Sequence record: PZ445442.1
From: a phage
Length of the DNA: 64,000 bases
Strand: one strand, 5' to 3'
Part shown: piece after piece, positions 50,951 to 62,599 of the stretch
Layout: each line of letters begins with the position of its first letter
Position numbering within the stretch: the first letter of the stretch is position 1
Notes under the pieces: model-generated
Databases searched by the model: none
Seen by the model: only the letters and a program-made list of their open reading frames with translations
What the model was told of the DNA's origin: nothing
Program-made: the position numbers and the translations under genes

Positions 50951-51101
50951 CTTTCGATAGGTATATTATGCCGCCTGGCGGGGCCGCTGTCAACACTTTT
51001 CAAAAAATTTTTCTAACCTGATGCGCTAACCGTTGCAACCTGGCGGGGCCAGCCTGGCAGGTCCGCACTATAAAGTAAACAGCTACAGAAGAGGTACAAA
51101 A

Positions 51102-51227
51102 ATGAAAGGTAATGCTACTCGCCTGGGAAATGTAGTGATTAATGATACGGAAGCTATCGCCCTGGTTGAAAAGGTTATGGCGGGAGCGTTGGAACATAAA
51201 GAAGAGTACGAAAAAAATGGTGGTTAA
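51102..51227 (+). CDS. small early protein
   Basis: 41 aa from ATG 51102 with RBS AGAGG; the track ORF upstream overlaps repeats. Confidence 0.35.
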   Translation: MKGNATRLGNVVINDTEAIALVEKVMAGALEHKEEYEKNGG

Positions 51228-51280
51228 CCTGGCGGGGGGCGGCAGGTGGATTCTATCATAAAAATAATTTAAAATAGTCG

Positions 51281-51308
51281 TTGACAACAAGGTTAATCAT
51301 GGTATTAT
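51281..51308 (+). promoter_or_regulatory. sigma70-like promoter
   Basis: TTGACA-16nt-TATTAT upstream of 51359 gene. Confidence 0.5.
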
Positions 51309-51358
51309 TACCCTACAAGGTGAACAACACCGCACTAACCAGTAAAGAGGATAAATTT

Positions 51359-51556
51359 ATGAACGCATACGGGATCAAAGTACGTCGCAACACTCGCCAG
51401 GTGGTCACCAATCAAGTGATTTGCCGGGTGGATGTAACCATCAACAACGGGCAAGGCCTTTATAAATTTCGTCGCGGCCATAGCTATACCCTGCAACAGC
51501 TTAATCGTTGCGCCCTGACAAAAGGTCAGATCAACCACTGGTTTAATAAAAAATAA
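51359..51556 (+). CDS. small early protein
   Basis: 65 aa from ATG 51359 (RBS AAAGAGGA); the track ORF start coincides with the promoter -35. Confidence 0.45.
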   Translation: MNAYGIKVRRNTRQVVTNQVICRVDVTINNGQGLYKFRRGHSYTLQQLNRCALTKGQINHWFNKK

Positions 51557-51559
51557 GTA

Positions 51560-51588
51560 TTGACATACAGTCCGACACCAAATACACT
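51560..51588 (+). promoter_or_regulatory. sigma70-like promoter
   Basis: TTGACA-17nt-TACACT upstream of 51621 gene. Confidence 0.5.
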
Positions 51589-51620
51589 AAAAGCACAAAA
51601 GACACTAAGAGGATAAAATC

Positions 51621-52019
51621 ATGAAAACCACTACCTTTAATTTTGATAATGCAGACTTTTCTTTTTCTGATGTCAAGAACTGCCGCCGTGATCGTGGATT
51701 TTACAAGGCTTATAATCTGGTGGGCCTGGACGATGACAATAATTTGCACGAAGTAGCTGAGATCCGGTATTATGCCGCCGCCAGCGGGAACACTCACTAC
51801 TGCGTGTTTTGGATTCACGACAACAAGAACAATAAGTACGGTTATACTGGCGGCAAGGCGAGCGGTCACGGTTACGATAAAGCTAACGCAGCACTTGAGA
51901 GCGCATTAAATGCTATGGGGATCACTGCCGACGGCTGGATCTACGAAGAAGAGTTTTTGTCGGCACTTGCTGACCACCTGGGCTATAAAAAACACATTGT
52001 AACATGCGCCCACGAATAA
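51621..52019 (+). CDS. hypothetical early protein
   Basis: 132-aa ORF, RBS AAGAGGA. Confidence 0.5.
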   Translation: MKTTTFNFDNADFSFSDVKNCRRDRGFYKAYNLVGLDDDNNLHEVAEIRYYAAASGNTHYCVFWIHDNKNNKYGYTGGKASGHGYDKANAALESALNAMGITADGWIYEEEFLSALADHLGYKKHIVTCAHE

Positions 52020-52025
52020 AAATCA

Positions 52026-52053
52026 TTGACACGCTGCAAAATTTAAGTAAACT
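52026..52053 (+). promoter_or_regulatory. sigma70-like promoter
   Basis: TTGACA-16nt-TAAACT; followed by stem-loop 52064-52082. Confidence 0.45.
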
Positions 52054-52063
52054 AGACACAAAA

Positions 52064-52082
52064 GGCGGGAATGTTTCCCGCC
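52064..52082 (+). other. 5'-UTR GC stem-loop (GGCGGGAA-TGT-TTCCCGCC)
   Basis: Perfect 8-bp stem, 3-nt loop, no downstream T-tract; between promoter and RBS of 52102 gene. Confidence 0.5.
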
Positions 52083-52101
52083 AGCACAAAGGAAAAAGAT
52101 C

Positions 52102-52497
52102 ATGAATAAGAACGTACGCCGCATCATGAACGAACTGGCAAACGATGAAAAAATTATTGATATGCATTTGGTCAACATTTGCCGCCGTTGTGTAACATAT
52201 AACAACCGCGCCGCAAAAGCGCGTGAGATGAACGCAAAAGGCACCTTAAAGCCCTTTCAGGTGGTTGTAAAATCTATAACTAGCGCAGCAGGCCAGGCGC
52301 AGGACCACAACAACGAGAGCGCTAATATTGATCCGTCTTACGTAATGAAACGGATCCGGACTTGCAAGAATAAAGAGCAGGTATATAACGTCATAGATTG
52401 GCTGGACTCCCTGGGCGATGTGGTTTACAATAGGTTTTCTGCAGCTATCGAGATCCAGCTTGACAGATTGGACGGGAAAGTACTAAAAACTTATTGA
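52102..52497 (+). CDS. hypothetical early protein
   Basis: 131-aa ORF, RBS AAAGGAAAAAG. Confidence 0.5.
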   Translation: MNKNVRRIMNELANDEKIIDMHLVNICRRCVTYNNRAAKAREMNAKGTLKPFQVVVKSITSAAGQAQDHNNESANIDPSYVMKRIRTCKNKEQVYNVIDWLDSLGDVVYNRFSAAIEIQLDRLDGKVLKTY

Positions 52498-52499
52498 GT

Positions 52500-52545
52500 T
52501 TATTTTTAGATGGCCTTGACACCAGGGCCATCAATAAAGTAAACT
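52500..52545 (+). promoter_or_regulatory. repeated palindrome-containing promoter cassette, copy 1
   Basis: TTATTTTTAGATGGCCTTGACACCAGGGCCATCAATAAAGTAAACT; TTGACA flanked by inverted repeat GATGGCC/GGCCATC; near-identical copies at 53120 and 56853. Confidence 0.5.
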
Positions 52546-52576
52546 AACCACAGTTGAGCGGAAAGGGGGCTTAAAG

Positions 52577-52696
52577 ATGAGCACTACACGCCAGCACACA
52601 AAGGTAACCATCATCGTTTGCATCATTGGGTACATCCTGGCGCAAATGTTGATGGGTAGCGCCAACGGTGTCGCAAAATTTTTCTTAAACTTTTAA
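52577..52696 (+). CDS. small hydrophobic peptide (39 aa)
   Basis: MSTTRQHTKVTIIVCIIGYILAQMLMGSANGVAKFFLNF; RBS AAAGGGGG; below the 60-aa track cutoff. Confidence 0.4.
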   Translation: MSTTRQHTKVTIIVCIIGYILAQMLMGSANGVAKFFLNF

Positions 52697-52724
52697 TTGA
52701 CAAGCTAACTTAAATCGATATAAT
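52697..52724 (+). promoter_or_regulatory. sigma70-like promoter
   Basis: TTGACA-16nt-TATAAT; followed by stem-loop GGGAA-AAC-TTCCC (52737-52749). Confidence 0.55.
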
Positions 52725-52775
52725 AAGCACATAAACGGGAAAACTTCCCAGAACACACAAAAGGAGAAAAACACC

Positions 52776-53117
52776 ATGACTACTATGACCGCCTCAGAAA
52801 AAGCTATGCAGATCGCTGAACTGAAAAAACAGATCGCAGACCTTGAGAATAAGATCGATAACTTTGAAATCGACGAGGACAAGTACGACGAAAACTATGA
52901 TGAATGGTTAGACGAGATCTACGGCGAAATTATGATCGGAAACATTTCTTTTCTTCCGTCGCGTATCCTCAAGGAGCTAGATCCTATCGCTTACCGCTGC
53001 GGATTTAGCGACTACATCGACAGCCTGGATATTGAGGACGATGAAGAATACCAGGAATTACAGACAGAGTTAGAAGAAGCAAAAGAAGAGCTTGCGGAGC
53101 TGGAAGAAAACGAGTAA
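52776..53117 (+). CDS. highly acidic early protein
   Basis: 113 aa, very Asp/Glu-rich with coiled-coil-like N-terminus; RBS AAAGGAGAAA. Confidence 0.5.
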   Translation: MTTMTASEKAMQIAELKKQIADLENKIDNFEIDEDKYDENYDEWLDEIYGEIMIGNISFLPSRILKELDPIAYRCGFSDYIDSLDIEDDEEYQELQTELEEAKEELAELEENE

Positions 53118-53119
53118 GC

Positions 53120-53165
53120 TTATTTTTAGATGGCCTTGACACCAGGGCCATCAATAAAGTAAACT
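53120..53165 (+). promoter_or_regulatory. repeated palindrome-containing promoter cassette, copy 2
   Basis: Identical 46-bp element to 52500-52545. Confidence 0.5.
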
Positions 53166-53206
53166 TTATACTGTTAACACTGAACTAATGCATAGGAGTT
53201 AAAACC

Positions 53207-53452
53207 ATGGCAGCACTAATCACCAAATATTATGCCCCTACCAACACCAAAAGCGCCCGTATCATGGTAAAAGGCTTCGGACGTAAAAAGGTGTACACCT
53301 GGGATTATGCCTTAGACACGGAAGACAACTACACCAACGCAATGACCGATTTTATTAATGAACTAAATAAGCAGATCTTGACAAGTTATAAAGTGACCGA
53401 TATTGCTTATATAGGTGAAGGCGGGATCTGTTTTGTAGGCATTGTGAAATAG
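53207..53452 (+). CDS. hypothetical early protein
   Basis: 81-aa ORF, RBS AGGAG. Confidence 0.45.
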   Translation: MAALITKYYAPTNTKSARIMVKGFGRKKVYTWDYALDTEDNYTNAMTDFINELNKQILTSYKVTDIAYIGEGGICFVGIVK

Positions 53453-53500
53453 TTATTTTTTCGGTGGTCCTGGTTGCAGGGCCATCTATAAAGATAATTT
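53453..53500 (+). promoter_or_regulatory. degenerate copy of the repeated promoter cassette
   Basis: TTATTTTTTCGGTGGTCCTGGTTGCAGGGCCATCTATAAAGATAAT: same layout with substitutions. Confidence 0.4.
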
Positions 53501-53526
53501 ATTAACACCATGAAAGGAGAAAGTAC

Positions 53527-54066
53527 ATGATCAGCGGGGCAAGTTTTATTATTGGCGCTATTGCTACGGCTTTAATTGTAAATAAGATCCAGGATAAAAA
53601 GGAAAGAGGAAGTACCGCCCTTGCAGAATATCCATTTTGGGCATTCAACGATAACGAAGATTATATTATAAAGTATAAAAATAAAGAAGGTGACCAAGTA
53701 ACACCGCGACCGATCCCGGCTTACAAAATGCAGGAAACACTATACCGCCTGGAGGCGGGAGGCGCAAAAATTGTAGACTTTTGGGGATACGACCACACAG
53801 ATCAGGAAGTTATAAAGCGCCGTATCCGGGCTATTCAGGCCAATATTGAAGTTAGCAAGGGGGAATATATGAAAATTAATTTCGAGAAAATTGTAAAGCG
53901 CCCTCATGATTCCGAAGAGCTGCCAGAACGCCGCCAGCGTAACAATAAACTGAATAAGCCAAAAAGGTTTGGGAAGATCTGGCGTAATCATTATGATCGT
54001 AAATTGCCCGGCCTACTTTTGGAACGTGAACGACAGGCAGAACGATACCGCCATAAAGACAAATAA
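53527..54066 (+). CDS. hypothetical membrane-anchored early protein
   Basis: 179 aa; N-terminal hydrophobic helix then basic C-terminus; RBS AAAGGAGAAAG. Confidence 0.5.
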   Translation: MISGASFIIGAIATALIVNKIQDKKERGSTALAEYPFWAFNDNEDYIIKYKNKEGDQVTPRPIPAYKMQETLYRLEAGGAKIVDFWGYDHTDQEVIKRRIRAIQANIEVSKGEYMKINFEKIVKRPHDSEELPERRQRNNKLNKPKRFGKIWRNHYDRKLPGLLLERERQAERYRHKDK

Positions 54067-54074
54067 CAACCAAC

Positions 54075-54100
54075 GCCCCGCCATTGTGCGGGGCTTTTTA
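54075..54100 (+). terminator. Rho-independent terminator
   Basis: GCCCCGC-CATTGT-GCGGGGC followed by TTTTTATTT. Confidence 0.65.
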
Positions 54101-54307
54101 TTTCTATCCTACGAATAGCGCCCCTGGTTGGCCCCACAAACGCCACAAAAGCCCCTACCTATGCAATCCCCTTTCTTGACCTGAAAACAACGTCTAGGGC
54201 CGTTTTATGGCGTTAAAAATATTATTGACAGTGATTTTATTCAAAGCTTGACACCTTGGAATAGTCCGGATATACTAACCACATCAAAGCAAGAAGGAGT
54301 AAACGCC

Positions 54308-54568
54308 ATGCGTAAATTAAAAAATTTTGATAAAGTAGATGTTGTCCTGAATAATTTTTACTACTGCAATAATAAAGCCGTTTGGTGGCGTGATAGCTCC
54401 ACCGATAAAGTTAAAGCGCGCTTTCTCCAGGGGCACTGGCAAGGCCGCCCAGTGATTAAAATCTTAGGGCAATTGGTAGCGTTTAAAAATTGCCACCGTG
54501 TTGACGACGTTGAAGATATTTTGAACATTTTACGCCACAATAATTTAAAAAATAGTGTTGACAAGTAA
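54308..54568 (+). CDS. hypothetical early protein
   Basis: 86 aa from ATG 54308 (RBS AAGGAG); promoter TTGACA-17-TATACT upstream at about 54208-54236. Confidence 0.45.
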   Translation: MRKLKNFDKVDVVLNNFYYCNNKAVWWRDSSTDKVKARFLQGHWQGRPVIKILGQLVAFKNCHRVDDVEDILNILRHNNLKNSVDK

Positions 54569-54585
54569 GCCTCAATAAGTATACT
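54558..54585 (+). promoter_or_regulatory. sigma70-like promoter
   Basis: TTGACA-16nt-TATACT; followed by stem-loop GGCGGGAA-AAC-TTCCCGCC (54596-54614). Confidence 0.55.
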
Positions 54586-54642
54586 TAAACACACAGGCGG
54601 GAAAACTTCCCGCCACTAACAAAGAAAATAGGAGAAAATATC

Positions 54643-55266
54643 ATGACCACCGTTAACATTACTACAGGTTACAATTTATCTTTCGACGTGCTGACCGACG
54701 AACAAAAAGAAAAAGCCGTTGAAATGGTCCGCGAAAGAGAAGAACACAGCGGGGATAATTTTTTTGCAGAAAGTGTAATTGAATACTATAAAGAATATGT
54801 TTTTCCAGAGTATGGCCTTGAAGATACCGAAGTACATTGGTCAGGCTTTTGGTGCCAGGGTGACGGCGCGTCAATCAGTGCGGAAAACGTGGATTTAGAA
54901 AAATTCTTGCGTAAAGTAAAGGCCCTGACCAAGTTCCGATCAATTCGTCACTTGTTCGGCACAATGCACGATGGCGAGCTATCCGCAAGTGTTGAGCGTG
55001 ATCCATATAGCCGCTATAGTCACGAAAACACTGTAAGCGGGTACATCGATACTACATGGCTAGACCTGACCGCCAAACAAGAAAATAAAGTGGAAGATCT
55101 GGAAGAGCTGATCACCGAGACGGTACGGGAGCTATCCCGCAAGGTTTACGTAGACCTGGAGGAGGCCTATCTTGAGCAATTTACCGCCGAAAACTTGATC
55201 GGCCTTATCGAGGCAAATGATTGGCGGTTTGATGTGGATGAGCATGGCGAGATGAGTTTTTCATAA
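54643..55266 (+). CDS. hypothetical acidic early protein
   Basis: 207-aa ORF, RBS AGGAGAAAA. Confidence 0.5.
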   Translation: MTTVNITTGYNLSFDVLTDEQKEKAVEMVREREEHSGDNFFAESVIEYYKEYVFPEYGLEDTEVHWSGFWCQGDGASISAENVDLEKFLRKVKALTKFRSIRHLFGTMHDGELSASVERDPYSRYSHENTVSGYIDTTWLDLTAKQENKVEDLEELITETVRELSRKVYVDLEEAYLEQFTAENLIGLIEANDWRFDVDEHGEMSFS

Positions 55267-55311
55267 ATAAAGTGTTGCAATAATCTAAAAACCTGCTATA
55301 TTAAAACTCAA

Positions 55312-55330
55312 GGGGCAAGACGTTTGCCCC
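55312..55330 (+). other. 5'-UTR GC stem-loop
   Basis: GGGGCAA-GACG-TTGCCCC between a TTGCAA/TATATT promoter-like element and the RBS of 55356. Confidence 0.45.
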
Positions 55331-55355
55331 CACACAAAACAAAGAGGAAAACATC

Positions 55356-56545: not shown

Positions 56546-56602
56546 AAAAAATTCTTCCGGGGTGTTGCAATCCGGTCCGGAATGTGGATAATAACAATCA
56601 AC

Positions 56603-56617
56603 GGGGAGCTAATCCCC
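56603..56617 (+). other. 5'-UTR GC stem-loop
   Basis: GGGGA-GCTAA-TCCCC downstream of a TTGCAA...GATAAT promoter-like element, upstream of RBS of 56649. Confidence 0.4.
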
Positions 56618-56852: not shown

Positions 56853-56897
56853 TTATTTTTAGATGGCCTTGACTCCAGGGCCATCAATAAAGTAAAT
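56853..56897 (+). promoter_or_regulatory. repeated palindrome-containing promoter cassette, copy 3
   Basis: TTATTTTTAGATGGCCTTGACTCCAGGGCCATCAATAAAGTAAAT, two substitutions relative to copies 1-2. Confidence 0.5.
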
Positions 56898-56943
56898 TTA
56901 AACCCTGTTAAAAATACCACGCAGTTAACAAGGAGTGATAGAC

Positions 56944-57680: not shown

Positions 57681-57820
57681 GGCGTTACAGCGGCCCCCAA
57701 GGCGCTTAAAAAATTTTTAAAGAAGTACTTGCATCAAGTCCTACAATATGGATAATAAAGGGTGTCGGGGGGGGGCGGTGAGGCCTCCAATCATTAACCG
57801 GATAGATAGGAGTTAAAACC

Positions 57821-58105
57821 ATGGCTATTGTTACCGTTGGCGATGTAGTGGAAATGGAAGCAAAATACTTAAAAGCGGGTATGCATATCCTACGCAACGA
57901 TCTTGAACTAGTCCTGACAATGGTTGACTATAACCCAGGGCAAGATTATCCAAGCATCGACTACTTTTTTGAGTATGTTGATGAAGAGTTGAAAGAGGAT
58001 GAGGCCTATTGCGGTGAGTTCTGCAATTTCTTTTGTCCTGATGAGGTTGTAAAGGTTATCTATCAACCTGGCGTACCTTTCCCGCTGCACGCTATCAATA
58101 AATAA
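57821..58105 (+). CDS. hypothetical early protein
   Basis: 94-aa ORF, RBS AGGAG. Confidence 0.45.
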   Translation: MAIVTVGDVVEMEAKYLKAGMHILRNDLELVLTMVDYNPGQDYPSIDYFFEYVDEELKEDEAYCGEFCNFFCPDEVVKVIYQPGVPFPLHAINK

Positions 58106-58168
58106 ACCTGGTGGGGCCGAAAAGGCCCCCTCCTGAAACTATGAAAAAATAAAGAGAGGTAAATCATC

Positions 58169-58402
58169 ATGATGGAACAAATTAAACGCGCTGAGTCTAT
58201 TAATGGCAATGTGATCTATTTTGTCAGCAAAAACGAAAAAGGCGTACCATATGCGGCGGTAATAGTACAACCTGACGGCGATTATTGGTTTACTGTATAC
58301 GGATCTTATTCTTTCGGGCGTCCGGTTCATGATAGAATTTTGAAAGTAGCAAATCCGACCGGGAAAAATATCACAGCAGAAAAATTTTTTGAAAATAGTT
58401 GA
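58169..58402 (+). CDS. hypothetical early protein
   Basis: 77-aa ORF, RBS AAGAGAGG. Confidence 0.45.
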   Translation: MMEQIKRAESINGNVIYFVSKNEKGVPYAAVIVQPDGDYWFTVYGSYSFGRPVHDRILKVANPTGKNITAEKFFENS

Positions 58403-58426
58403 CATGACCATATAAGACTGTAATAT
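58399..58426 (+). promoter_or_regulatory. sigma70-like promoter
   Basis: TTGACA-16nt-TAATAT; followed by stem-loop about 58437-58453. Confidence 0.5.
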
Positions 58427-58478
58427 ATAAATCAAAGGGGGGCAACAAGCCCCACCAACCACAAAGAGGATAAAAATC

Positions 58479-58658
58479 ATGGCTATTATTGCAAAGACTG
58501 AGATCGTAGGCTTAGATTCTATTCTCCTCGCATATGAGGAAGCTATAGAAATGTATGTGGTTTCCTATGGTGAGTATATTCGTGAATATAAATCTATTGA
58601 TCTGGCTTTTGAATGTTATATTCGCCAGGTAAATAAAGCATATGATGATTATCGTTAA
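58479..58658 (+). CDS. small early protein (59 aa)
   Basis: MAIIAKTEIVGLDSILLAYEEAIEMYVVSYGEY...; RBS AAAGAGGA; just below the track cutoff. Confidence 0.4.
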   Translation: MAIIAKTEIVGLDSILLAYEEAIEMYVVSYGEYIREYKSIDLAFECYIRQVNKAYDDYR

Positions 58659-58664
58659 AATAGT

Positions 58665-58692
58665 TTGACAACAATTACAAATCGGGTAGAAT
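58665..58692 (+). promoter_or_regulatory. sigma70-like promoter
   Basis: TTGACA-16nt-TAGAAT; followed by conserved GTATTTCGTAGGGCGG and stem-loop 58705-58720. Confidence 0.5.
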
Positions 58693-58743
58693 GTATTTCG
58701 TAGGGCGGCAATGATGCCGCTCACAACTAAAAGAGAGATCATC

Positions 58744-58938
58744 ATGGCGCTTAAAAAACTAACAAGCAATACTCGTTGGGATGAAATCGACGGGGAAGTT
58801 TACATTTTTGCCCGTAAACCAGGGGATCAAAAATGGTCAAAGGCTTTTACTTGCCATCCTGCAACAATAGATCTGATAAAAAGTCAAGGACTACGTGAAG
58901 CAGTAGCAAGAAGTTTACTGATCCCTTGTAAAAATTAG
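58744..58938 (+). CDS. small early protein
   Basis: 64 aa from ATG 58744 (RBS AAAAGAGAG). Confidence 0.4.
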   Translation: MALKKLTSNTRWDEIDGEVYIFARKPGDQKWSKAFTCHPATIDLIKSQGLREAVARSLLIPCKN

Positions 58939-58939
58939 T

Positions 58940-58967
58940 TTGACAACAGTCAACAATCTGGTAAAGT
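58940..58967 (+). promoter_or_regulatory. sigma70-like promoter
   Basis: TTGACA-16nt-TAAAGT; followed by stem-loop GCGGGAA-TAC-TTCCCGC (58980-58996). Confidence 0.45.
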
Positions 58968-59015
58968 GTACTACATAGCGCGGGAATACTTCCCGCCATT
59001 AATGAGGGTAATTTA

Positions 59016-59153
59016 ATGAAAACTTTCAACGCAACAGCCTCGACAATTGGTTATATTATTACAGTACAAGCCGTGGATCTGGTAGCAGCAGCAAACAAGA
59101 TTAAAAAGATGATTCCGCCAGGTAGTGAATTTTCCGTTTGGGAAGTAAAATAA
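59016..59153 (+). CDS. small early protein (45 aa)
   Basis: MKTFNATASTIGYIITVQAVDLVAAANKIKKMIPPGSEFSVWEVK; RBS-like GAGGG upstream. Confidence 0.35.
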   Translation: MKTFNATASTIGYIITVQAVDLVAAANKIKKMIPPGSEFSVWEVK

Positions 59154-59236
59154 ATCTTGACAATAGTTTATTACTTGATAGACTGTATTTCGTAGGGCGG
59201 GGCAATAAGGCAACGCCCATTAATGAGGGTAGAATC

Positions 59237-59341
59237 ATGTTAGAGAAAATTTTCACGGTTGTAGTAGTTGGCCTGGCATTATCGGTTGGAGTGGTTGCAA
59301 CTATGGCTAACATGATCCTATCTTCCCACGGTATCGGTTAA
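59237..59341 (+). CDS. small hydrophobic peptide (34 aa)
   Basis: MLEKIFTVVVVGLALSVGVVATMANMILSSHGIG: single TM helix; RBS GAGGG; the track's longer ORF spans the promoter. Confidence 0.35.
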   Translation: MLEKIFTVVVVGLALSVGVVATMANMILSSHGIG

Positions 59342-59342
59342 G

Positions 59343-59567
59343 GTGAATCAAATGATCACGAATAAGACAGGTAAAACAGAATTTTTACGCGGCTTGCAAA
59401 TAGGTAAGCCTGAGATCTGGCATTGCACTAAAACACCACGTGACGAAATGAAAGACTTCACCGCCACGCTGCAACGGGTAAAGATATCCATCACGCAGAA
59501 AAAGGCCTTGATAGTGGTGGAAGGTGAGATCCCTCAAACCGTTGTTATAGTTGAGCGTACAGCATAG
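59343..59567 (+). CDS. hypothetical early protein
   Basis: 74-aa ORF. Confidence 0.4.
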   Translation: MNQMITNKTGKTEFLRGLQIGKPEIWHCTKTPRDEMKDFTATLQRVKISITQKKALIVVEGEIPQTVVIVERTA

Positions 59568-59658
59568 TTTAATTTATAGCGATACCTGAAAATTAACCAA
59601 TAAATCATAAACAGGCGGTTACCGCCGCCTTAAACGTAGCAGAAAGAGGCTAGACACA

Positions 59659-59943
59659 ATGAAAAAGATGATCGCAGTAGTTGCCCTGGTTGTTGGACTT
59701 AATGCGCCTGTAATGGCTAAAGAGCTGGCAAAAGAGGTTAATCTAACGGATATCCATGCCGTCAATCAAATCGGGGTTACTTATCGCTTATGCCTTGCCG
59801 CTAAAACTTTTAATGACGGCACAACAGAGTACTACGGATTCGAGGGTATCCGGTGCGGTAAGCTTGCTCGCGACCTTAAGGAAGATCCAGACCTGGAAGA
59901 TCTGCCCATCACCGTAAACGGTAAAGCTTACGTAAACCGTTAA
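59659..59943 (+). CDS. small secreted/periplasmic protein
   Basis: 94 aa with signal peptide MKKMIAVVALVVGLNAPVMA; RBS AAAGAGG. Confidence 0.45.
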   Translation: MKKMIAVVALVVGLNAPVMAKELAKEVNLTDIHAVNQIGVTYRLCLAAKTFNDGTTEYYGFEGIRCGKLARDLKEDPDLEDLPITVNGKAYVNR

Positions 59944-59945
59944 CC

Positions 59946-60080
59946 ATGAGAAAGATAATCATCACCTTGGGGATTGTGGCTGGATCGCTGGCGCTCTTTC
60001 CCCTTATGGTTAGGTATGTGCTGATCAGTATTGTCCTGGTAGTCAGTGATCTATTGGGAACGGTTGGCACCTTGTTTTAA
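59946..60080 (+). CDS. small hydrophobic peptide (44 aa)
   Basis: MRKIIITLGIVAGSLALFPLMVRYVLISIVLVVSDLLGTVGTLF; start 3 nt after upstream stop. Confidence 0.35.
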   Translation: MRKIIITLGIVAGSLALFPLMVRYVLISIVLVVSDLLGTVGTLF

Positions 60081-60092
60081 AGAGCGATAAAA

Positions 60093-60284
60093 ATGAATAT
60101 CGAACAAGTTAGAAAGGTATTGGCGGTACTGCGTTATCATAATCATAGAAAGGTTATAGACGATCCTGATTATGTTGATTCAAGTCTGGAAGGGGATACA
60201 CTGCAAGCCATAAGCAACATGCAAGAATTGCTCAAGCGCATGACAGAGAAAAACCGACCGGACTACATAGGCGAAAAAATATAA
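60093..60284 (+). CDS. hypothetical early protein
   Basis: 63-aa ORF. Confidence 0.4.
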   Translation: MNIEQVRKVLAVLRYHNHRKVIDDPDYVDSSLEGDTLQAISNMQELLKRMTEKNRPDYIGEKI

Positions 60285-60300
60285 TCCTTATAAACTACAA

Positions 60301-60330
60301 AACAGGGCTTGCAATGGTCCTGTTTTTTGT
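60301..60330 (+). terminator. Rho-independent terminator
   Basis: AACAGG...CCTGTT stem followed by TTTTTG. Confidence 0.45.
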
Positions 60331-60343
60331 TATACTTGTTTCA

Positions 60344-60389
60344 CGGCAGGCACCTGGCGACGGGTGGAGACAATCACCGGGCCTGCCTG
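60344..60389. repeat. GC-rich palindromic element (inverted copy)
   Basis: GGCAGGCACCTGGCGACGGGTGGAGACAATCACCGGGCCTGCC; reverse complement matches the 50771 core. Confidence 0.45.
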
Positions 60390-60412
60390 TCATATAAGAA
60401 CTATAAAAACCG

Positions 60413-60441
60413 TTGACATCTGCCAGGTGGTGGGGTAACAT
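60413..60441 (+). promoter_or_regulatory. sigma70-like promoter
   Basis: TTGACA-17nt-TAACAT; followed by stem-loop GGGCA-AAAG-TGCCC (60453-60466). Confidence 0.5.
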
Positions 60442-60495
60442 TTATCTTGAAGGGGCAAAAGTGCCCACACAACAACCAGAAGAGAGGAAAACATT

Positions 60496-60768
60496 ATGTC
60501 AAGCTGGATTAATCAAGAAGTCGAATCACGTTTTAATGCTATTTGGGATCTCATCGAAAAAGAGGACGGAACATCAAGCCCTTATCTCAATAATCTTGAA
60601 TTCCATTTCGTGGAAGCGATGAACGCAGAACATGATCACGAAGGTGGTGCGGATGAGTTCGCTAAAGGGTATGGCTTCAACAATGCCAACGAAATGATCG
60701 AGGCGGTTGTACTCCAGGCTGAGGAAGATTATCAATTAAAAACGCTTGAATTCTGCCGCCGTAAGTAA
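60496..60768 (+). CDS. hypothetical acidic early protein
   Basis: 90-aa ORF, RBS AGAGAGGAAAA. Confidence 0.45.
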   Translation: MSSWINQEVESRFNAIWDLIEKEDGTSSPYLNNLEFHFVEAMNAEHDHEGGADEFAKGYGFNNANEMIEAVVLQAEEDYQLKTLEFCRRK

Positions 60769-60782
60769 TAAGATAATGACAC

Positions 60783-60796
60783 GGGCCAAAAGGCCC
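60783..60796 (+). other. 5'-UTR GC stem-loop
   Basis: GGGCC-AAAA-GGCCC upstream of RBS of 60829 gene. Confidence 0.4.
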
Positions 60797-60828
60797 ACTA
60801 ATCAGAACCACACAAAGAGAGAAAGAAA

Positions 60829-61047
60829 ATGACAACCCGTAAAATTAAAGTTGTTTGCATTGAATCGACTGGGGGCGCTTTTGTAGTTGGTCAGGAATAT
60901 AATGCGGTTTTAATGGGTACGGATTGGAAGGTTAAAGGCCTTAATGGTTACGAGTACGGCACTACTTGCGGCTTGCGTGGTCGAATCGGATACGTGAGTT
61001 TAGACAACAAAGAAAAATTTGTTTTCGACACCGTTGTGAGTAAATAG
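60829..61047 (+). CDS. hypothetical early protein
   Basis: 72-aa ORF, RBS AAAGAGAGAAAG. Confidence 0.45.
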   Translation: MTTRKIKVVCIESTGGAFVVGQEYNAVLMGTDWKVKGLNGYEYGTTCGLRGRIGYVSLDNKEKFVFDTVVSK

Positions 61048-61125
61048 CATGAATTGCTAAAGACTGATCTGCGAACTGCTGTATTATCAACTAATCAAAA
61101 CGAACCGCATAAAGAGGAAAACATC

Positions 61126-61389
61126 ATGAAACGTCTGGATCAGCTTAAATTAGTTCAGTACATGGCCTACAGAATTCTTGAAGTCCAAAAAGGTAGCAAA
61201 AAAGAGGTTTGCGAGAAAGCTTATAAGATCTTTACTCGCAAAAAAGATGACTGGATGCTACGCCAGACCAAAAAATCCGATATCCTGGGGTACCTGGAAG
61301 AAGAGATCCGGCTTGAAGAACAAGAAGAGATCCGCCGCAGTGAGGCAGATTATCAGGCAGCTTGGGAAAACTGGATGAGCAACAAATAA
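61126..61389 (+). CDS. hypothetical early protein
   Basis: 87 aa from ATG 61126 (RBS AAAGAGGAAAA). Confidence 0.45.
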   Translation: MKRLDQLKLVQYMAYRILEVQKGSKKEVCEKAYKIFTRKKDDWMLRQTKKSDILGYLEEEIRLEEQEEIRRSEADYQAAWENWMSNK

Positions 61390-61533
61390 TACAACAAGTT
61401 ACGGTCAGGGGGGTAATAAAGCCCCTTGATCACATAAAAATTATGCTATCCCTGGTTGACAGGGATCGGCAGTTTTGCTATATTCTTTTTTGAAGGGGAG
61501 TTGTAAGAAAATTAACTAAGAGGTAAAAACACC

Positions 61534-61953
61534 ATGAACATTAAATCTAATAATCCGGCATATAGCTTTGATAACGCTTTTTGTCACGGTCCGGCGGCGA
61601 AAGGATTCGAAATCGATGGTAAACTAATTATTGTCAATGTTGACGGGGAAGAGGTTGCAGTATATCCGGTGGCAGACGTTAAAAGCCGTCTACAATGCCG
61701 CATGGATGTTACCGCCTATCAGCTTGATCCGGTCCGCATAGTTGCCCTGGTCCTGGAAGAAGAAATTAAAGCCATGCACCATAGCAACAGATTTATTGGT
61801 GACGCGCAGGATAATATGAAAGTATGCCGCCATAAAGTTAATGAAGTGCTTAAAGAGTACGGCTATAAAGATCTTATGATCAAACGCGAGGAAAAATTCC
61901 GCTACCGTAACGACCTGGCAAATCGGATTTTTGAAATATACGAATCATTATAA
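61534..61953 (+). CDS. hypothetical early protein
   Basis: 139-aa ORF, RBS AAGAGG; TTGACA-17-TATATT promoter at about 61449-61477. Confidence 0.5.
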   Translation: MNIKSNNPAYSFDNAFCHGPAAKGFEIDGKLIIVNVDGEEVAVYPVADVKSRLQCRMDVTAYQLDPVRIVALVLEEEIKAMHHSNRFIGDAQDNMKVCRHKVNEVLKEYGYKDLMIKREEKFRYRNDLANRIFEIYESL

Positions 61954-61971
61954 TTTTTTAACTGAATTATC

Positions 61972-61996
61972 AAGGGGCTTAGGCCCCTTTCTTTTT
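61972..61996 (+). terminator. Rho-independent terminator
   Basis: AAGGGGC-TTAG-GCCCCTT followed by TCTTTTT; last clear signal before the non-coding repeat region. Confidence 0.65.
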
Positions 61997-62599
61997 GTCT
62001 GCTCTTCCCCCTACCATAAACGGCCCTACCTGGCAAGTGGAATAATTGACGAGCCATCAATCCCACACACTGTACAAACATACATATAAAATAACTATTG
62101 CATAATTTTTCATTGTGTGGTAGCAGGGCCATTTTTACACATTTTTCCTTCCAAAATTGCACGTAATGCAGCATTTGCACAAAATTTAACCTGATGCATA
62201 TATTCAATAGCTTGTCAACAACTAAAAATCTTTATAAGTCATACACTTACATAACTACAAAAGCGTTTTCTACGTGAAAAATCGAGTATAACTATAGCCG
62301 CCAGATCTCAGAATTTACGTACGCTCGCCATTCTATAGCCTGCTAAGCATTTATTCCAACCATAGAATAACGGAATAGTCAATACCTGCATAAAATAATT
62401 ATTCGTGTAAACTGCATAACATAAATCGGCCCAGGTGTCAACATTTTTCGTAAACAGTCTGGAATTGTCACGTTAGGTTACCATAAGCAGAGAAATCTTT
62501 AGTCGTCTAATGTTTACTGTACGTTACTATATTAACTGAAATCATTAGATGACTAATAGAAAGATAAGAAATAATTAACAATACAATTATTTTATCTGT

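What the first reader, a model, noticed from the sequence alone, without database searches (positions are those of the whole stretch)
51000..62000. Early region: one sigma70-like promoter and one short GC stem-loop per small gene
Across about 11 kb roughly 30 small ORFs (34-207 aa) are each preceded by a TTGACA -35 hexamer, a 16-18 nt spacer and a TAnnnT -10, then a 5-8 bp GC stem-loop with a 3-5 nt loop (for example GGCGGGAA-TGT-TTCCCGCC) and a strong RBS. The stem-loops lack a 3' U-tract, so they are not intrinsic terminators. They sit about 5-15 nt downstream of the -10, which would place them at the extreme 5' end of each transcript. The same layout occurs upstream of the methyltransferase gene at 31748. 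Possible roles are mRNA stabilisation, a recognition element for a phage RNA-binding or processing factor, or a conserved promoter-proximal regulatory site.
Basis: seen in the sequence. Interest (0 to 1): 0.6.

Follow-up and report, generated by a model that had tools for sequence, protein, structure and literature searches.

The report
Promoter-plus-hairpin cassettes in rV5-like phage
About a third of the small early genes in this rV5-like coliphage sit behind a repeated cassette (a strong host-type promoter, then a GC hairpin about 10 bases later) that resembles the "PeSL" cassettes of T4-like phages, probably forms a 5' hairpin on each mRNA, and marks the points where small genes are gained, lost and swapped between phages.

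Summary
The window is Escherichia phage EmilHeitz (Bas49, Vequintavirus). The layout is real but overstated. Of about 31 small ORFs in 51000-62000, about 17 have a sigma70-like promoter. Only 10 (plus one at 31708) have a GC hairpin, which starts 9-12 nt after the -10.

This is far from chance: 6 strict cases against 0.41 expected, P=3e-6. Every hairpin within 45 nt of a promoter starts at offset 9-14 in four phage genera.

The hairpins have no U-tract (0.7 T in 8 nt, against 5.7 for true terminators). Stems are conserved while loops drift. The Shine-Dalgarno sequence stays unpaired.

The cassette recurs 13-18 times per locus in phi92-like and Phapecoctavirus phages. Gene gains and losses between relatives join inside the cassettes. 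One cassette-gene-cassette module is shared across subfamilies.

The closest known kind is the PeSL (promoter-early stem-loop) of T4-like phages. There, however, the stem-loop lies upstream of or inside the promoter and is said to terminate. Here it lies downstream of the predicted start.

Best reading: PeSL-like mobile cassettes whose hairpin is the 5'-terminal stem-loop of each early mRNA, probably a stabiliser. Start sites are unmapped. I rate it a new variant of a known kind, of moderate interest.

The parts
31708..31765 (+). Cassette outside the stated region: -35 TTGACT 31708-13, -10 TAAGAT 31731-36, 11-nt gap, hairpin GGGGAGG-CACT-CCTCCCC 31748-65; ATG 31792 (N-terminal fragment of the N6-adenine methyltransferase)
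   Evidence: (dG -14.6, z -2.7)
52026..52082 (+). Cassette: -35 TTGACA 52026-31, -10 TAAACT 52048-53, 10-nt gap, hairpin GGCGGGAA-TGT-TTCCCGCC 52064-82; ATG 52102
   Evidence: dG -14.6, z -3.4; identical in rV5; loop flipped to ACA in L010
52697..52749 (+). Cassette: -35 TTGACA, -10 TATAAT 52719-24 (12/12), 12-nt gap, weak hairpin GGGAA-AAC-TTCCC 52737-49; ATG 52776
   Evidence: dG -5.5, z -1.7: the weakest member
54558..54614 (+). Cassette: -35 TTGACA, -10 TATACT 54580-85, 10-nt gap, hairpin GGCGGGAA-AAC-TTCCCGCC 54596-614; ATG 54643
   Evidence: z -4.5; the L010 ortholog has a C>T change that keeps a G.U pair, and a changed loop
55275..55330 (+). Cassette: -35 TTGCAA, -10 TATATT 55297-302, 9-nt gap, hairpin GGGGCAA-GACGT-TTGCCCC 55312-30; ATG 55356
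   Evidence: (z -2.7)
56565..56617 (+). Cassette: -35 TTGCAA, -10 GATAAT 56587-92, 10-nt gap, hairpin GGGGA-GCTAA-TCCCC 56603-17; ATG 56649. A separate T-tailed terminator (56516-36) lies just upstream of this promoter
   Evidence: (z -2.5)
58399..58456 (+). Cassette: -35 TTGACA, -10 TAATAT 58421-26, 10-nt gap, hairpin GGGGGGC-AACAA-GCCCCACC 58437-56; ATG 58479
   Evidence: z -3.3. The orthologous hairpin in the EdH4 record is annotated 'putative terminator'
58665..58722 (+). Cassette of the phi92-like type: -35 TTGACA, -10 TAGAAT 58687-92, gap GTATTTCGTA, hairpin GGGCGGCA-ATGA-TGCCGCTC 58703-22 (one G.U pair); ATG 58744 (64-aa ORF not annotated in GenBank)
   Evidence: (z -3.2). Nearly identical cassette plus gene in Justusliebigvirus alia (L007 8897-9254, 90.5%); absent from rV5, EdH4 and L009
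58940..58996 (+). Cassette: -35 TTGACA, -10 TAAAGT 58962-67, 12-nt gap, hairpin GCGGGAA-TAC-TTCCCGC 58980-96; ATG 59016
   Evidence: EdH4 has a single chimeric cassette: left flank of 58665, remainder of 58940
59157..59218 (+). Cassette: -35 TTGACA, -10 TAGACT 59179-84, gap GTATTTCGTA, interrupted hairpin GGGCG(GGGCAATAAGGCAA)CGCCC 59195-218; ATG 59237
   Evidence: (dG -16.8, z -3.8). Same hairpin in alia, L011, L013 and L010
60413..60466 (+). Cassette: -35 TTGACA, -10 TAACAT 60436-41, 11-nt gap, hairpin GGGCA-AAAG-TGCCC 60453-66; ATG 60496. A T-tailed terminator at 60299-326 lies upstream of the promoter
   Evidence: (z -1.8)
57729..57788 (+). Possible weak member: TTGCAT-16-GATAAT (57751-56), hairpin GGGGGCGGTGAGGCCTCC 57771-88 at offset 14; ATG 57821
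   Evidence: The -35 matches only 3/6, so this is not counted among the 11
60772..60796 (+). Possible degraded ('half') cassette: GATAAT 60772-77, hairpin GGGCC-AAAA-GGCCC 60783-96 at offset 5, no convincing -35; ATG 60829
   Evidence: The gene 60829-61047 is an indel relative to EdH4 and L010
52509..52545 (+). Second composite class: hairpin GATGGCC-TTGACACCAG-GGCCATC with TTGACA (52516-21) in the loop, then AATAAAGTAAACT (18-nt spacer to TAAACT 52540-45)
   Evidence: dG -16.3
53129..53165 (+). Second composite class, copy 2 (identical hairpin 53129-52; TTGACA 53136-41; TAAACT 53160-65)
   Evidence: copies cross-match at 94-98%
56862..56898 (+). Second composite class, copy 3 (hairpin 56862-85; TTGACT 56869-74; TAAATT 56893-98)
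53463..53497 (+). Variant of the second class: GGTGGTCCTGGTTGCAGGGCCATC plus TATAAAGATAAT; no sigma70-compatible spacing
60299..60336 (+). Composite terminator/promoter: T-tailed hairpin AAAACAGGGCTTGCAATGGTCCTGTTTT with TTGCAA (60309-14) in the loop and TATACT 16 nt later
   Evidence: listed both as a terminator and as a promoter
61448..61484 (+). Promoter 61456 (TTGACA-17-TATATT) with hairpin ATCCCTGGTTGACAGGGAT around its -35; no downstream hairpin
54075..54094 (+). Genuine T-tailed intrinsic terminator, given for contrast. The others are at 55746-65, 56516-36, 57645-74 and 61972-89
   Evidence: 5-7 T in the 8 nt after the stem

Best explanation
These are PeSL-like regulatory cassettes of the variable early-gene region of an rV5-like phage.

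Each cassette runs in this order: AT-rich upstream tract, near-consensus sigma70 promoter (spacer mostly 16 nt), initial transcribed segment of about 10 nt, GC-rich stem-loop, unstructured A/C-rich leader, strong Shine-Dalgarno sequence, and a small gene of unknown function.

Inferred mechanism, three parts:
(a) Host RNA polymerase starts about 7 nt after the -10. The hairpin is then the first structure of the mRNA, 3-6 nt from its 5' end. There it most likely hinders 5'-end-dependent decay (RppH and the 5' sensor of RNase E), as shown for ompA-type and synthetic 5'-terminal stem-loops.
(b) In read-through RNA from the upstream unit, the same hairpin can serve as a 3' barrier or segment boundary.
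(c) At the DNA level, the repeated cassette supplies short homology at which single promoter-gene units are inserted, deleted and exchanged, even between phage subfamilies.

What is shown: the anatomy, its non-randomness, stem conservation, absence of a U-tract, and indel junctions inside cassettes.
What is inferred: the start site, and therefore the 5'-terminal position, and the stabilising effect.

My confidence that these are repeated PeSL-like cassettes tied to gene turnover is about 0.75. My confidence in the 5'-stabiliser role specifically is about 0.4.
For: - Position. Whenever a stable hairpin lies within 45 nt of a strong promoter, it starts 9-14 nt after the -10. Counts are 6/6 in the window, 13/13 in Phapecoctavirus tuntematon, 10/10 in Justusliebigvirus alia and 4/4 in Avunavirus Av-05.
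- The spacing holds across cassettes whose intervening sequences are unrelated, for example AGACACAAAA, AACAATCAAC, TTATCTTGAAG and GTATTTCGTA.
- The distance from hairpin to ATG is looser, 17-31 nt.
- Folding. In all 11 predicted leaders the hairpin is the dominant structure, starting at nt 4-7. The SD and AUG are unpaired in nearly all.
- Not terminators. The 3' flanks hold 0.7 T per 8 nt, against 5.7 for the true terminators. At 56516/56565/56603 and 60299/60413/60453 a canonical terminator already precedes the promoter.
- Selection on pairing. Between EmilHeitz and an ortholog about 85% identical (L010), there is 1 change in 90 stem nt, and it is G.U-preserving. Loops show 9 changes in 31 nt (Fisher P = 1.5e-5).
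- Sense-strand bias. G.U pairs make the + strand fold more stable in 45 of 68 unique cassettes, against 21 for the other strand. The copies are not independent.
- Cassette behaviour. The 64-aa gene 58744-58938 is missing in EdH4 and L009, and the alignments overlap by 56 nt, which is one cassette. EdH4's single cassette is a chimera whose crossover lies in AAAATAGTTTGACAACA.
- Window 58657-59010 (cassette-gene-cassette) is 90.5% identical to alia, a phage of another subfamily, and is absent from rV5.
- Further indels are bounded by repeated leader or cassette sequence or by hairpins: 59010-59217, 60824-61090 and 61427-61973.
- Hairpin type is homogenised within genomes: CAATGGTG in tuntematon against CAATAGTG in alia.
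- Precedents. PeSLs are described in PMC2839356 and PMC4122927. The stabilising effect of 5'-terminal stem-loops (Emory 1992) is cited in PMC7509114.
Against: - No transcription start site is mapped for any rV5-like or phi92-like phage in the searchable literature.
- With the usual 7-nt rule, the unpaired 5' tail is 3-6 nt. From my own recollection of Emory et al. 1992, not verified here, stabilisation falls off once more than about 2-4 nt are unpaired. Several cassettes are therefore borderline.
- Many equally strong early promoters in the same phage have no hairpin (51560, 54248, 41816-48760). The hairpin is thus not a general requirement for early expression, and its restriction to the variable region fits a mobility-linked origin.
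- Constant spacing in the phi92-like copies could partly reflect common descent or gene conversion rather than selection.
- The published PeSL stem-loop acted as a strong terminator in a lacZ assay.
- The observed crossover lay in the -35/UP segment, not in the hairpin. The hairpin itself is therefore not shown to matter for recombination.
Confidence: 0.5

Rival explanations
1. Attenuator or terminator, the original PeSL reading. The hairpins stop or dampen transcription arriving from the upstream unit, so each small gene is expressed only from its own promoter.
For: - Arbiol et al. 2010 report that one RB49 PeSL stem-loop lowered downstream lacZ as much as rrnB T1.
- Annotators of phage EdH4 labelled two of the orthologous hairpins 'putative transcriptional terminator'.
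- A dense tandem array of strong promoters would benefit from insulation.
Against: - There is no U-tract: 0-1 T in the 8 nt after 9 of 11 stems, against 5-7 for the region's true terminators.
- The hairpin lies downstream of the predicted start, so an efficient terminator would also abort the cassette's own transcripts.
- In RB49 and in PST and nt-1 the stem-loop lies inside or upstream of the promoter, which avoids that conflict. Only 1 of 36 RB49 promoter-like sites has a downstream hairpin.
- Canonical terminators already precede two of the cassettes (56516, 60299).
Confidence: 0.15
2. Hitch-hiking or DNA-level element. The hairpin is a recombination signal (a cruciform or hairpin target of a phage recombinase or endonuclease), or simply a passenger of a cassette that spreads by homologous recombination. 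It has no role in the RNA.
For: - The cassettes are confined to the variable region plus one plastic gene, the methyltransferase.
- Indel junctions fall in cassettes, and a module is shared across subfamilies.
- Hairpin type shows concerted evolution within genomes.
- Arbiol et al. speculate that GGGG...CCCC may be bound by a recombination protein.
- The whole-hairpin loop flip between orthologs is what a DNA palindrome can do.
Against: - The one crossover resolved here lies in the -35/UP segment, not in the hairpin.
- Stems are kept while loops drift, and G.U (G.T) pairs are tolerated preferentially in the sense strand. This fits an RNA better than a two-strand cruciform.
- The spacing to the -10 is fixed even where the intervening sequences are unrelated, which a recombination signal would not need.
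Confidence: 0.15
3. Protein handle. A phage-encoded factor binds the nascent 5' hairpins to co-regulate the whole set of early units. This could be N/boxB-like antitermination, Nun-like arrest, or targeted shut-off or processing of early mRNAs.
For: - Short GC stems with small A-rich loops superficially resemble boxB (this is from my own knowledge, not tested here). Examples are GGGCC-AAAA-GGCCC at 60783 and GGGGCC-GAAAA-GGCCCC at 58113.
- The 5' arms are biased to GGCGG or GGGG.
- A shared tag on many early transcripts would allow coordinated control.
Against: - Loop length (3-5 nt, one interrupted stem) and loop sequence vary freely. Loops change or flip between orthologs while stems are kept.
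- No boxA-like partner can fit between the start and the stem.
- No Rfam family matches anywhere in the window.
- No candidate RNA-binding protein was found: the ORFs tested hit only PHROGs of unknown function.
Confidence: 0.12
4. Chance co-occurrence of promoter-like hexamers and GC palindromes in AT-rich intergenic DNA.
For: Consensus scans find many weak promoter-like sites: 52 against 34.7 expected in 50000-64000. Short hairpins are common, 182 start positions in 64 kb.
Against: Six cases against 0.41 expected at the fixed offset, P = 3e-6. The layout recurs with the same offset in four genera, and the stems are conserved.
Confidence: 0.02

Closest known systems
PeSLs (promoter-early stem-loops) of T4-like phages RB49/phi1, PST/T4 and nt-1/KVP40 (Arbiol et al. 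2010, PMC2839356; Comeau et al. 2014, PMC4122927)
   Same: - A near-consensus sigma70 early promoter with an AT-rich upstream tract, joined to a G-run/C-run stem-loop.
[quoted passage not shown]
- Many copies per genome.
- Indels and replacements between close relatives that join at the elements.
- The window's second class (stem-loop over the -35) and the composite terminator/promoter at 60299 match published subclasses.
   Different: - The phage lineage is unrelated (Vequintavirinae and Stephanstirmvirinae, not Straboviridae).
- In the main class the order is promoter then stem-loop. The stem starts 9-12 nt after the -10, downstream of the predicted start. In RB49 it lies between or over the hexamers, and in PST and nt-1 just upstream of the promoter.
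- There is no T-tract, so the published terminator role does not carry over on sequence grounds.
- Mini-circles were not tested.
5'-terminal stem-loop mRNA stabilisers (ompA 5' UTR and synthetic 5' hairpins, Emory, Bouvet & Belasco 1992, cited in PMC7509114; 5' stem-loops of phage T7 late transcripts such as the gene 10 leader, from my own knowledge)
   Same: A short stable hairpin within a few nucleotides of the predicted 5' end, followed by an unstructured leader and an exposed Shine-Dalgarno sequence. It is present on many transcripts of one phage, as in T7 class III transcripts.
   Different: - The 5' ends are not mapped here and no half-life data exist.
- The predicted unpaired tail (3-6 nt) is at or beyond the length that I recall as still protective.
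- The promoters are host sigma70 type, not phage RNA polymerase type.
Intrinsic (Rho-independent) terminators
   Same: A GC-rich stem of 5-8 bp with a small loop. Some orthologs are annotated as terminators in GenBank (EdH4).
   Different: There is no 3' U-tract (0.7 against 5.7 T per 8 nt), and the hairpins lie downstream of a promoter rather than after a gene end. Bona fide T-tailed terminators coexist in the same intergenic regions.
Lambda-type nut boxB hairpins (N and Nun binding), from my own knowledge
   Same: A promoter-proximal 5-bp GC stem, with an A-rich 4-5 nt loop in a few copies.
   Different: The loops are neither conserved in sequence nor in length. There is no boxA and no N-like protein was identified. 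The copy number, one per gene, is unlike nut sites.
Morons and integron-like gene cassettes (discussed in PMC2839356)
   Same: Single genes that travel with their own expression signals and are gained or lost as units.
   Different: Here the conserved promoter cassette itself provides the homology. No integrase or attC-like site is evident, and the units share the orientation of the surrounding operon.

Membership tests
PeSL (promoter-early stem-loop) cassettes | Strong sigma70-like early promoter with an AT-rich upstream region | tested here: met
   8 of 11 cassettes have a perfect TTGACA, with spacer 16-17 and TAnnnT. The 25 nt upstream are 71% AT, against 56% for the window. Promoter activity itself was not assayed.
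PeSL (promoter-early stem-loop) cassettes | Adjacent stable stem-loop, typically a G-run then a C-run | tested here: met
   Stems such as GGCGGGAA/TTCCCGCC, GGGGCAA/TTGCCCC and GGGGAGG/CCTCCCC; dG -5.5 to -16.8.
PeSL (promoter-early stem-loop) cassettes | Stem-loop placed upstream of, within or overlapping the promoter hexamers, as a composite terminator-promoter | tested here: not met
   Not met for the main class. The stem starts 9-12 nt downstream of the -10, whereas RB49 PeSLs carry it between or over the hexamers. Arbiol et al. do list a rare subclass 'downstream of the -10'. Met for the second class (52509, 53129, 56862, 61448, 60299).
PeSL (promoter-early stem-loop) cassettes | Concentrated in hyperplastic regions, upstream of small genes of unknown function | tested here: met
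   10 of 11 lie in 52-60.5 kb among ORFs that hit only PHROGs of unknown function. The strong promoters at 41.8-48.8 kb have none.
PeSL (promoter-early stem-loop) cassettes | Insertions, deletions and replacements between close relatives join at the elements | tested here: met
   Indels of genes 58744-58938 and 59016-59153 show cassette-length alignment overlaps. EdH4 has a chimeric cassette. rV5 carries a different cassette plus ORF at the same place. This rests on a few loci, not on a genome-wide statistic.
PeSL (promoter-early stem-loop) cassettes | Stem-loop acts as a transcription terminator or attenuator | not testable with these tools
   Sequence argues against an intrinsic terminator, since there is no U-tract. 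It needs in vitro transcription or Term-seq.
PeSL (promoter-early stem-loop) cassettes | Formation of cassette mini-circles | not testable with these tools
   Requires outward-facing PCR on infected-cell or virion DNA.
5'-terminal stem-loop mRNA stabiliser | Hairpin within about 2-4 unpaired nt of the real 5' end of the transcript (threshold recalled from Emory et al. 1992, not verified here) | tested here: inconclusive
   With the start assumed 7 nt after the -10, the unpaired tail is 3-6 nt. No start-site data exist.
5'-terminal stem-loop mRNA stabiliser | Structure, not sequence, is what is conserved | tested here: met
   1/90 stem changes against 9/31 loop changes between orthologs, P = 1.5e-5. 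Many different stem sequences sit at the same offset in four genera.
5'-terminal stem-loop mRNA stabiliser | Lengthens mRNA half-life in an RNase E / RppH-dependent way | not testable with these tools
   Needs rifampicin-chase half-lives with stem mutants.
Intrinsic terminator | GC-rich hairpin followed directly by a U-rich tract | tested here: not met
   T counts in the 8 nt after the stems are 0,0,0,1,0,0,0,1,3,3,0. None of the 11 is listed as a + strand terminator.
Lambda-type nut/boxB site | Conserved loop sequence and length recognised by an arginine-rich peptide, plus boxA (definition from my own knowledge) | tested here: not met
   Loops are TGT, AAC, GACGT, GCTAA, AACAA, ATGA, TAC, AAAG and CACT, and they change between orthologs. 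There is no room for boxA and no Rfam hit.

The most novel reading that the evidence does not exclude
The promoter-hairpin unit could be the working part of a dedicated, integron-like gene-cassette system of large virulent coliphages. On this reading the 5' hairpin (as RNA or as extruded DNA) is recognised by a phage factor. That factor would either mobilise single promoter-gene units between co-infecting phages of different subfamilies, or co-regulate all cassette transcripts as one regulon (coordinated protection and later shut-off). The same layout in unrelated cluster B mycobacteriophages would then point to a convergent, general phage strategy.
Probability: 0.1. Interest if true: 0.75.

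Novelty: new variant of a known kind. Interest (0 to 1): 0.4.

Why it matters
- Extension of a known element. If the reading holds, the PeSL idea (portable promoter cassettes that let phages try out small accessory genes) is not a T4-family peculiarity. It is also used by rV5-like and phi92-like phages, which are common in phage-therapy collections.
- Annotation. It gives a simple rule for the 'dark' early regions of these genomes: cassette boundaries define expression units, reveal unannotated small ORFs and flag spurious ones.
- Gene turnover. It explains where the host-takeover and anti-defence gene repertoire turns over between otherwise near-identical phages.
- A testable mechanistic point. 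The inverted order (promoter first, hairpin in the transcript) separates the 5'-protection hypothesis from the terminator hypothesis, and a handful of reporter constructs would test it.
- Tools. The cassettes would be compact, strong, self-contained expression parts for E. coli.

Tried and rejected
- Intrinsic terminators on the + strand: rejected, since the T-tract is absent.
- Terminators for antisense (minus-strand) transcription, an idea raised by the A-rich segment upstream of some stems. The consensus scan lists five of them on the minus strand. I rejected the idea because the phi92-type copies read CTATGTGA... on that strand, and because the fixed spacing to the -10 would be unexplained.
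- RNase III sites: the stems (5-8 bp) are far shorter than the roughly 20 bp needed (from my own knowledge).
- N4-type hairpin promoters for a virion RNA polymerase: considered at first sight, then dropped. The hairpins follow textbook sigma70 hexamers and the phage is an rV5-like myovirus.
- Known RNA families: no Rfam match in the whole window at gathering thresholds.
- Link to RB49 through the 90-aa protein that the rV5 record calls RB49-like: tblastn at E <= 1e-5 found no Krischvirus hit among the rows listed (40 of 148 records), so no shared cassette could be shown.
- Offsets from MFE folding of 45-nt windows were blurred by weak outer pairs. I replaced this with a GC-core hairpin definition.
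- The collection-wide pattern scan returned mostly single matches. By my rough estimate these are what chance gives for 17 specified bases in a collection of that size, so I treated only multi-copy contigs as meaningful.
- Literature: no paper in the library combines PeSLs with rV5, Vequintavirinae, phi92, Phapecoctavirus or PVP-SE1. There are no start-site data for Vequintavirus and no evident Vequintavirinae transcriptome study among the titles returned. The rV5 and Certrevirus papers describe the sigma70-like promoters but not the hairpins.

Full report
**Identity and context**

The window is 100% identical to Escherichia phage EmilHeitz (BASEL collection Bas49, MZ501062.1, genus Vequintavirus, rV5-like), record positions 32683-96682. 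The flagged stretch, 51000-62000, is the gene-dense + strand block of small proteins of unknown function. It lies downstream of the replication genes. All ORFs I tested hit only PHROGs of unknown function. The rV5 genome paper predicted 33 sigma70-type promoters and says nothing about hairpins after them. A Certrevirus paper likewise reports clustered sigma70-like promoters only.

**Checking the observation**

I re-derived the gene starts. About 31 ORFs lie in the region. Two have good Shine-Dalgarno sequences but are not in the GenBank record. I then classified every intergenic region.

Ten intergenic regions carry the described layout. Their -35 hexamers start at 52026, 52697, 54558, 55275, 56565, 58399, 58665, 58940, 59157 and 60413.

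In all eleven:
- the -35 is TTGACA (8 cases), TTGCAA (2) or TTGACT (1);
- the spacer is 16 nt (9 cases) or 17 nt (2);
- the stem has 5-8 bp and the loop 3-5 nt (one stem is interrupted);
- the first paired base lies 9-12 nt after the last base of the -10.

About 17 ORFs have a recognisable promoter. Four strong promoters in the region (51281, 51560, 54248, 61456) lack the hairpin, as do all strong promoters at 41.8-48.8 kb. A dozen ORFs are simply coupled to the gene before them.

The region also contains six real T-tailed terminators. It contains a second composite element too, a 24-nt hairpin whose loop holds TTGACA, followed by AATAAAGTAAA.

**Is it more than chance?**

I applied strict, pre-stated criteria: a promoter match of at least 10/12 with an SD and a start codon downstream, and a GC-core hairpin of dG <= -5 kcal/mol. 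The + strand of the whole window has 29 such promoter sites. Six have a hairpin within 45 nt, and all six start at offset 10-12. The window's own density of such hairpins (182 start positions in 64 kb) predicts 0.41 in a 5-nt target, so P = 3e-6.

Predicted leaders, taken from 7 nt after the -10 to the AUG, fold with the hairpin as the dominant structure:
- energies are -5.5 to -16.8 kcal/mol;
- z-scores against dinucleotide shuffles are -1.7 to -4.5;
- the SD and AUG are left unpaired in nearly all.

Leaders of five hairpin-less promoters give z = -0.9 to +0.8. Four hairpin-less leaders are about 20 nt shorter: 31-36 nt from the -10 to the ATG, against 48-57 nt. The hairpin looks like an inserted module.

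**Not terminators**

The 8 nt after the eleven stems contain on average 0.7 T. The six T-tailed terminators of the same region have 5.7. In two intergenic regions a canonical terminator already sits upstream of the promoter, at 56516-36 before 56565 and at 60299-326 before 60413. The downstream hairpin is therefore not needed for termination there. Annotators of phage EdH4 nevertheless labelled two of the orthologous hairpins 'putative transcriptional terminator'.

**The turning point: a repeated cassette shared across genera**

Scanning related loci showed the same layout, more regular still.

| Phage (locus) | Group | Cassettes seen |
|---|---|---|
| tuntematon (L005) | Phapecoctavirus, Stephanstirmvirinae | about 18 in 12 kb |
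| alia (L007) | Justusliebigvirus, phi92-like | about 13 |
| L011, L013 | IMG/VR contigs similar to alia | similar |
| Av-05 (L012) | Avunavirus | 4, with quite different stems |

The consensus in the Stephanstirmvirinae is TTGACA-16-TAnnnT-GTATCACATAG, followed by GGCGGGAA..TTCCCGCC or GGGCGGCA..TGCCGCTC. The Av-05 stems are GGGGAGAG/CTCTCCCC and GACGGGGA/TCCCCGTC.

Across these genomes, every stable hairpin found within 45 nt of a strong promoter starts at offset 9-14. The counts are 13/13, 10/10 and 4/4.

Within a genome the hairpin type is homogenised. The recurrent loop is CAATGGTG in tuntematon and CAATAGTG in alia. Orthologous sites can carry different hairpin types, for example alia 8333 against L013 13080. 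Both facts are signs of exchange between copies.

**Selection acts on the pairing**

I compared seven EmilHeitz cassettes with their orthologs in an IMG/VR relative about 85% identical (L010).
- Stems: 1 substitution in 90 nt, a C>T that keeps a G.U pair.
- Loops: 9 changes in 31 nt (Fisher P = 1.5e-5).
- One hairpin, at 52064, is the exact reverse complement of its ortholog, so the loop is flipped from TGT to ACA.

Loop identity therefore does not matter. This weighs against a loop-reading protein.

G.U pairs recur in the sense strand, for example in GGGCGGCA...TGCCGCTC. The sense strand folds better than the antisense strand in 45 of 68 unique cassettes, against 21 for the reverse (Wilcoxon P = 0.003). 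The copies are related, so this counts only as a modest hint that the RNA of the + strand is the functional form.

**Gene turnover happens at the cassettes**

blastn of the region against relatives shows the following.
- The 64-aa gene 58744-58938 is absent from EdH4 and L009. The two flanking alignments overlap by 56 nt, which is exactly one cassette.
- A five-way alignment shows EdH4's single cassette to be a chimera. It has the left flank of cassette 58665 and the remainder of cassette 58940. The crossover lies in the shared AAAATAGTTTGACAACA.
- Gene 59016-59153 is present in EmilHeitz, EdH4 and tuntematon but absent from alia and L009, again with cassette-length overlaps.
- rV5 carries a different cassette plus a different ORF at this place.
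- Window 58657-59010 (cassette-gene-cassette) is 90.5% identical to alia. That phage belongs to another subfamily, and the two genomes otherwise match only in short patches.
- Further indels (59010-59217, 60824-61090, 61427-61973) are bounded by repeated leader segments or by GC hairpins.

**Comparison with what is known**

This is the behaviour described for PeSLs (promoter-early stem-loops) of T4-like phages. PeSLs have:
- strong sigma70-like promoters with an AT-rich upstream tract, plus a G-run/C-run stem-loop;
- about 50 copies per genome, concentrated in hyperplastic regions upstream of small genes of unknown function;
- recombination between copies that shuffles those genes and releases mini-circles (PMC2839356; PMC4122927).

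I checked the RB49 elements directly. [quoted passage not shown] It is therefore not part of the cassette's own transcript. Only 1 of 36 RB49 promoter-like sites has a hairpin downstream. In PST and nt-1 the stem-loop is 'just upstream of the endogenous promoter'.

The authors read the stem-loop as a terminator or attenuator and showed this for one element in a lacZ assay. They mention a rare subclass 'downstream of the -10'.

The window's main class is thus a PeSL-like cassette with the order inverted (promoter, then stem-loop). Its second class (stem-loop over the -35 at 52509, 53129, 56862 and 61448) and the composite terminator/promoter at 60299 match the classical subclasses.

No paper in the searchable library links PeSLs with rV5, Vequintavirinae, phi92, Phapecoctavirus or PVP-SE1.

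**How it most likely works**

Shown here:
- the anatomy and its non-randomness;
- the fixed offset across unrelated intervening sequences and across four genera;
- stem conservation with free loops;
- the absence of a U-tract, and an exposed SD;
- indel junctions inside cassettes.

Inferred:
- E. coli RNA polymerase starts about 7 nt after the -10, which is standard sigma70 geometry;
- this puts the stem 3-6 nt from the 5' end.

A hairpin in that position is the classical 5'-terminal stabiliser (Emory, Bouvet & Belasco 1992, cited in PMC7509114). It hinders conversion and sensing of the 5' end by RppH and RNase E. T7 late transcripts use the same trick (from my own knowledge).

The inverted order makes a terminator role awkward, because the cassette would abort its own transcripts. 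The fixed distance to the -10, with a variable distance to the SD, is what a 5'-end function predicts. Neither a terminator nor a recombination signal needs it. In read-through RNA the hairpin could also act as a 3' barrier. At the DNA level the cassette supplies the homology for modular exchange.

One lead is speculative. The window's 'anti-sigma factor' gene (21072-22061, minus strand) weakly matches Srd/sigma70-decoy PHROGs. T4 Srd is reported to stimulate RNase E (from my own knowledge). If the same holds here, protecting the phage's own early mRNAs at their 5' ends would make sense. I did not test this.

**Weaknesses**

- No start site is mapped.
- Tails of 5-6 nt may be too long for protection.
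- Many strong early promoters do without the hairpin, so it is not a general requirement. Its restriction to the variable region also fits a mobility-linked or hitch-hiking origin.
- Spacing in the phi92-type copies may partly reflect common descent.
- The one crossover I resolved lay in the -35/UP segment, not in the hairpin.

For these reasons I separate two confidences. That these are repeated PeSL-like cassettes tied to gene turnover: about 0.75. That the hairpin's job is 5' protection: about 0.4.

**A wider pattern, as a lead only**

An exact-pattern scan of IMG/VR for TTGACA-16/17-TAnnnT-9..12-GGCGGGAA returned mostly single hits, which I take to be chance. One contig, however, had four copies in 3.6 kb, reading TTGACA-17-TAACTT-11 nt-GGCGGGAA(a/g)(a/t)ACCCGCC-SD-ATG. 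That contig is cluster-B-like Mycobacterium phage Thonko. The same architecture in an unrelated phage of a distant host suggests convergence. Because I searched for this exact pattern, it says nothing about frequency.

**Verdict**

- The feature is a new variant, in a new phage lineage, of a known kind (PeSL cassettes).
- Interest is moderate.

Noticed in passing
window 52509-52545, 53129-53165, 56862-56898; variants at 53463-53497 and 51039-51079: A second repeated element: a 24-nt hairpin GATGGCCTTGACACCAGGGCCATC with TTGACA in its loop, followed by (A/T)ATAAAG(T/A)TAA. The variants keep the hairpin and the ATAAAG box but not sigma70 spacing, so the box might be a phage-specific (middle or late?) promoter rather than a -10.
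   Followed up: partly
window 31792-32084: The N6-adenine methyltransferase appears split by a +1 frameshift in a T6 run (about 31914-31920). A 43-aa ORF (MSKTKLELTWIGK...) stops there, and the protein continues (DNKLIFGDNLLALKAL...DPPFNTG) in the next frame. GenBank annotates only 32084-33118. This could be a pseudogene, a sequencing error or slippage.
   Followed up: partly
window 62000-64000: About 2 kb without any annotated gene (the rV5 paper also shows a 'non-coding' box). It holds iteron-like direct and inverted copies of AGTTGCC(T/C)TG at 62599-62811 and a perfect 18-nt inverted repeat at 62648/62782. It may be an origin or a packaging region.
   Followed up: partly
window 50974, 51039, 51228, 58107: The motif CCTGG(C/T)GGGG recurs in intergenic or gene-end positions, three times (51039, 51228, 58107) directly after AA(C). 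Each copy starts a GC-rich imperfect hairpin without a promoter or a T-tail.
   Followed up: no
window 52064-52082 vs L010 3175-3193: The orthologous hairpin in a relative about 85% identical is the exact reverse complement (GGCGGGAATGTTTCCCGCC vs GGCGGGAAACATTCCCGCC). The loop is flipped while the flanks stay collinear.
   Followed up: partly
L028 (IMG/VR contig, Mycobacterium phage Thonko MH632120.1 at 99.5% identity), minus strand, four copies within 3.6 kb: Unrelated cluster-B-like mycobacteriophages carry a repeated TTGACA-17-TAACTT-11 nt-GGCGGGAA..CCCGCC-SD-ATG unit, the same promoter-plus-5'-hairpin layout. Related contigs (L017, L042, L045, L050, L056, L059, L080) each show at least one copy.
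   Followed up: partly
window 51102-51227, 58744-58938; 52004-52105, 60327-60416: Two ORFs with good SD sequences (41 aa and 64 aa; the second has an annotated homolog in phage alia) are missing from the GenBank record. Two annotated CDS (bas49_0107 and bas49_0131) overlap promoter, hairpin or terminator sequence and look spurious.
   Followed up: partly
window 53527-54066: This 179-aa ORF corresponds to two separate ORFs in rV5 (ORF190 and ORF189) and to two PHROGs. Its C-terminal part matches Pfam PF08200 (phage T7 gene 1.1 protein).
   Followed up: no
window 21072-22061 (minus strand): The protein annotated 'anti-sigma factor' matches PHROGs 'decoy of host sigma70' and 'Srd anti-sigma factor' only weakly (E 3e-12 and 5e-10). 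Its best PHROG is labelled HNH endonuclease (E 3e-111), and it has no Pfam hit.
   Followed up: partly
window 34283-34357: The strong promoter TTGACA-17-TACAAT upstream of the Dcm-like methyltransferase is followed at offset 21 by a long T-tailed hairpin (AGGCCCTGCCCGAAAGGGTGGGGCTT TTTGC). A near-identical hairpin recurs at 46611-46632. This looks like a promoter-proximal terminator or attenuator, different from the cassettes.
   Followed up: no
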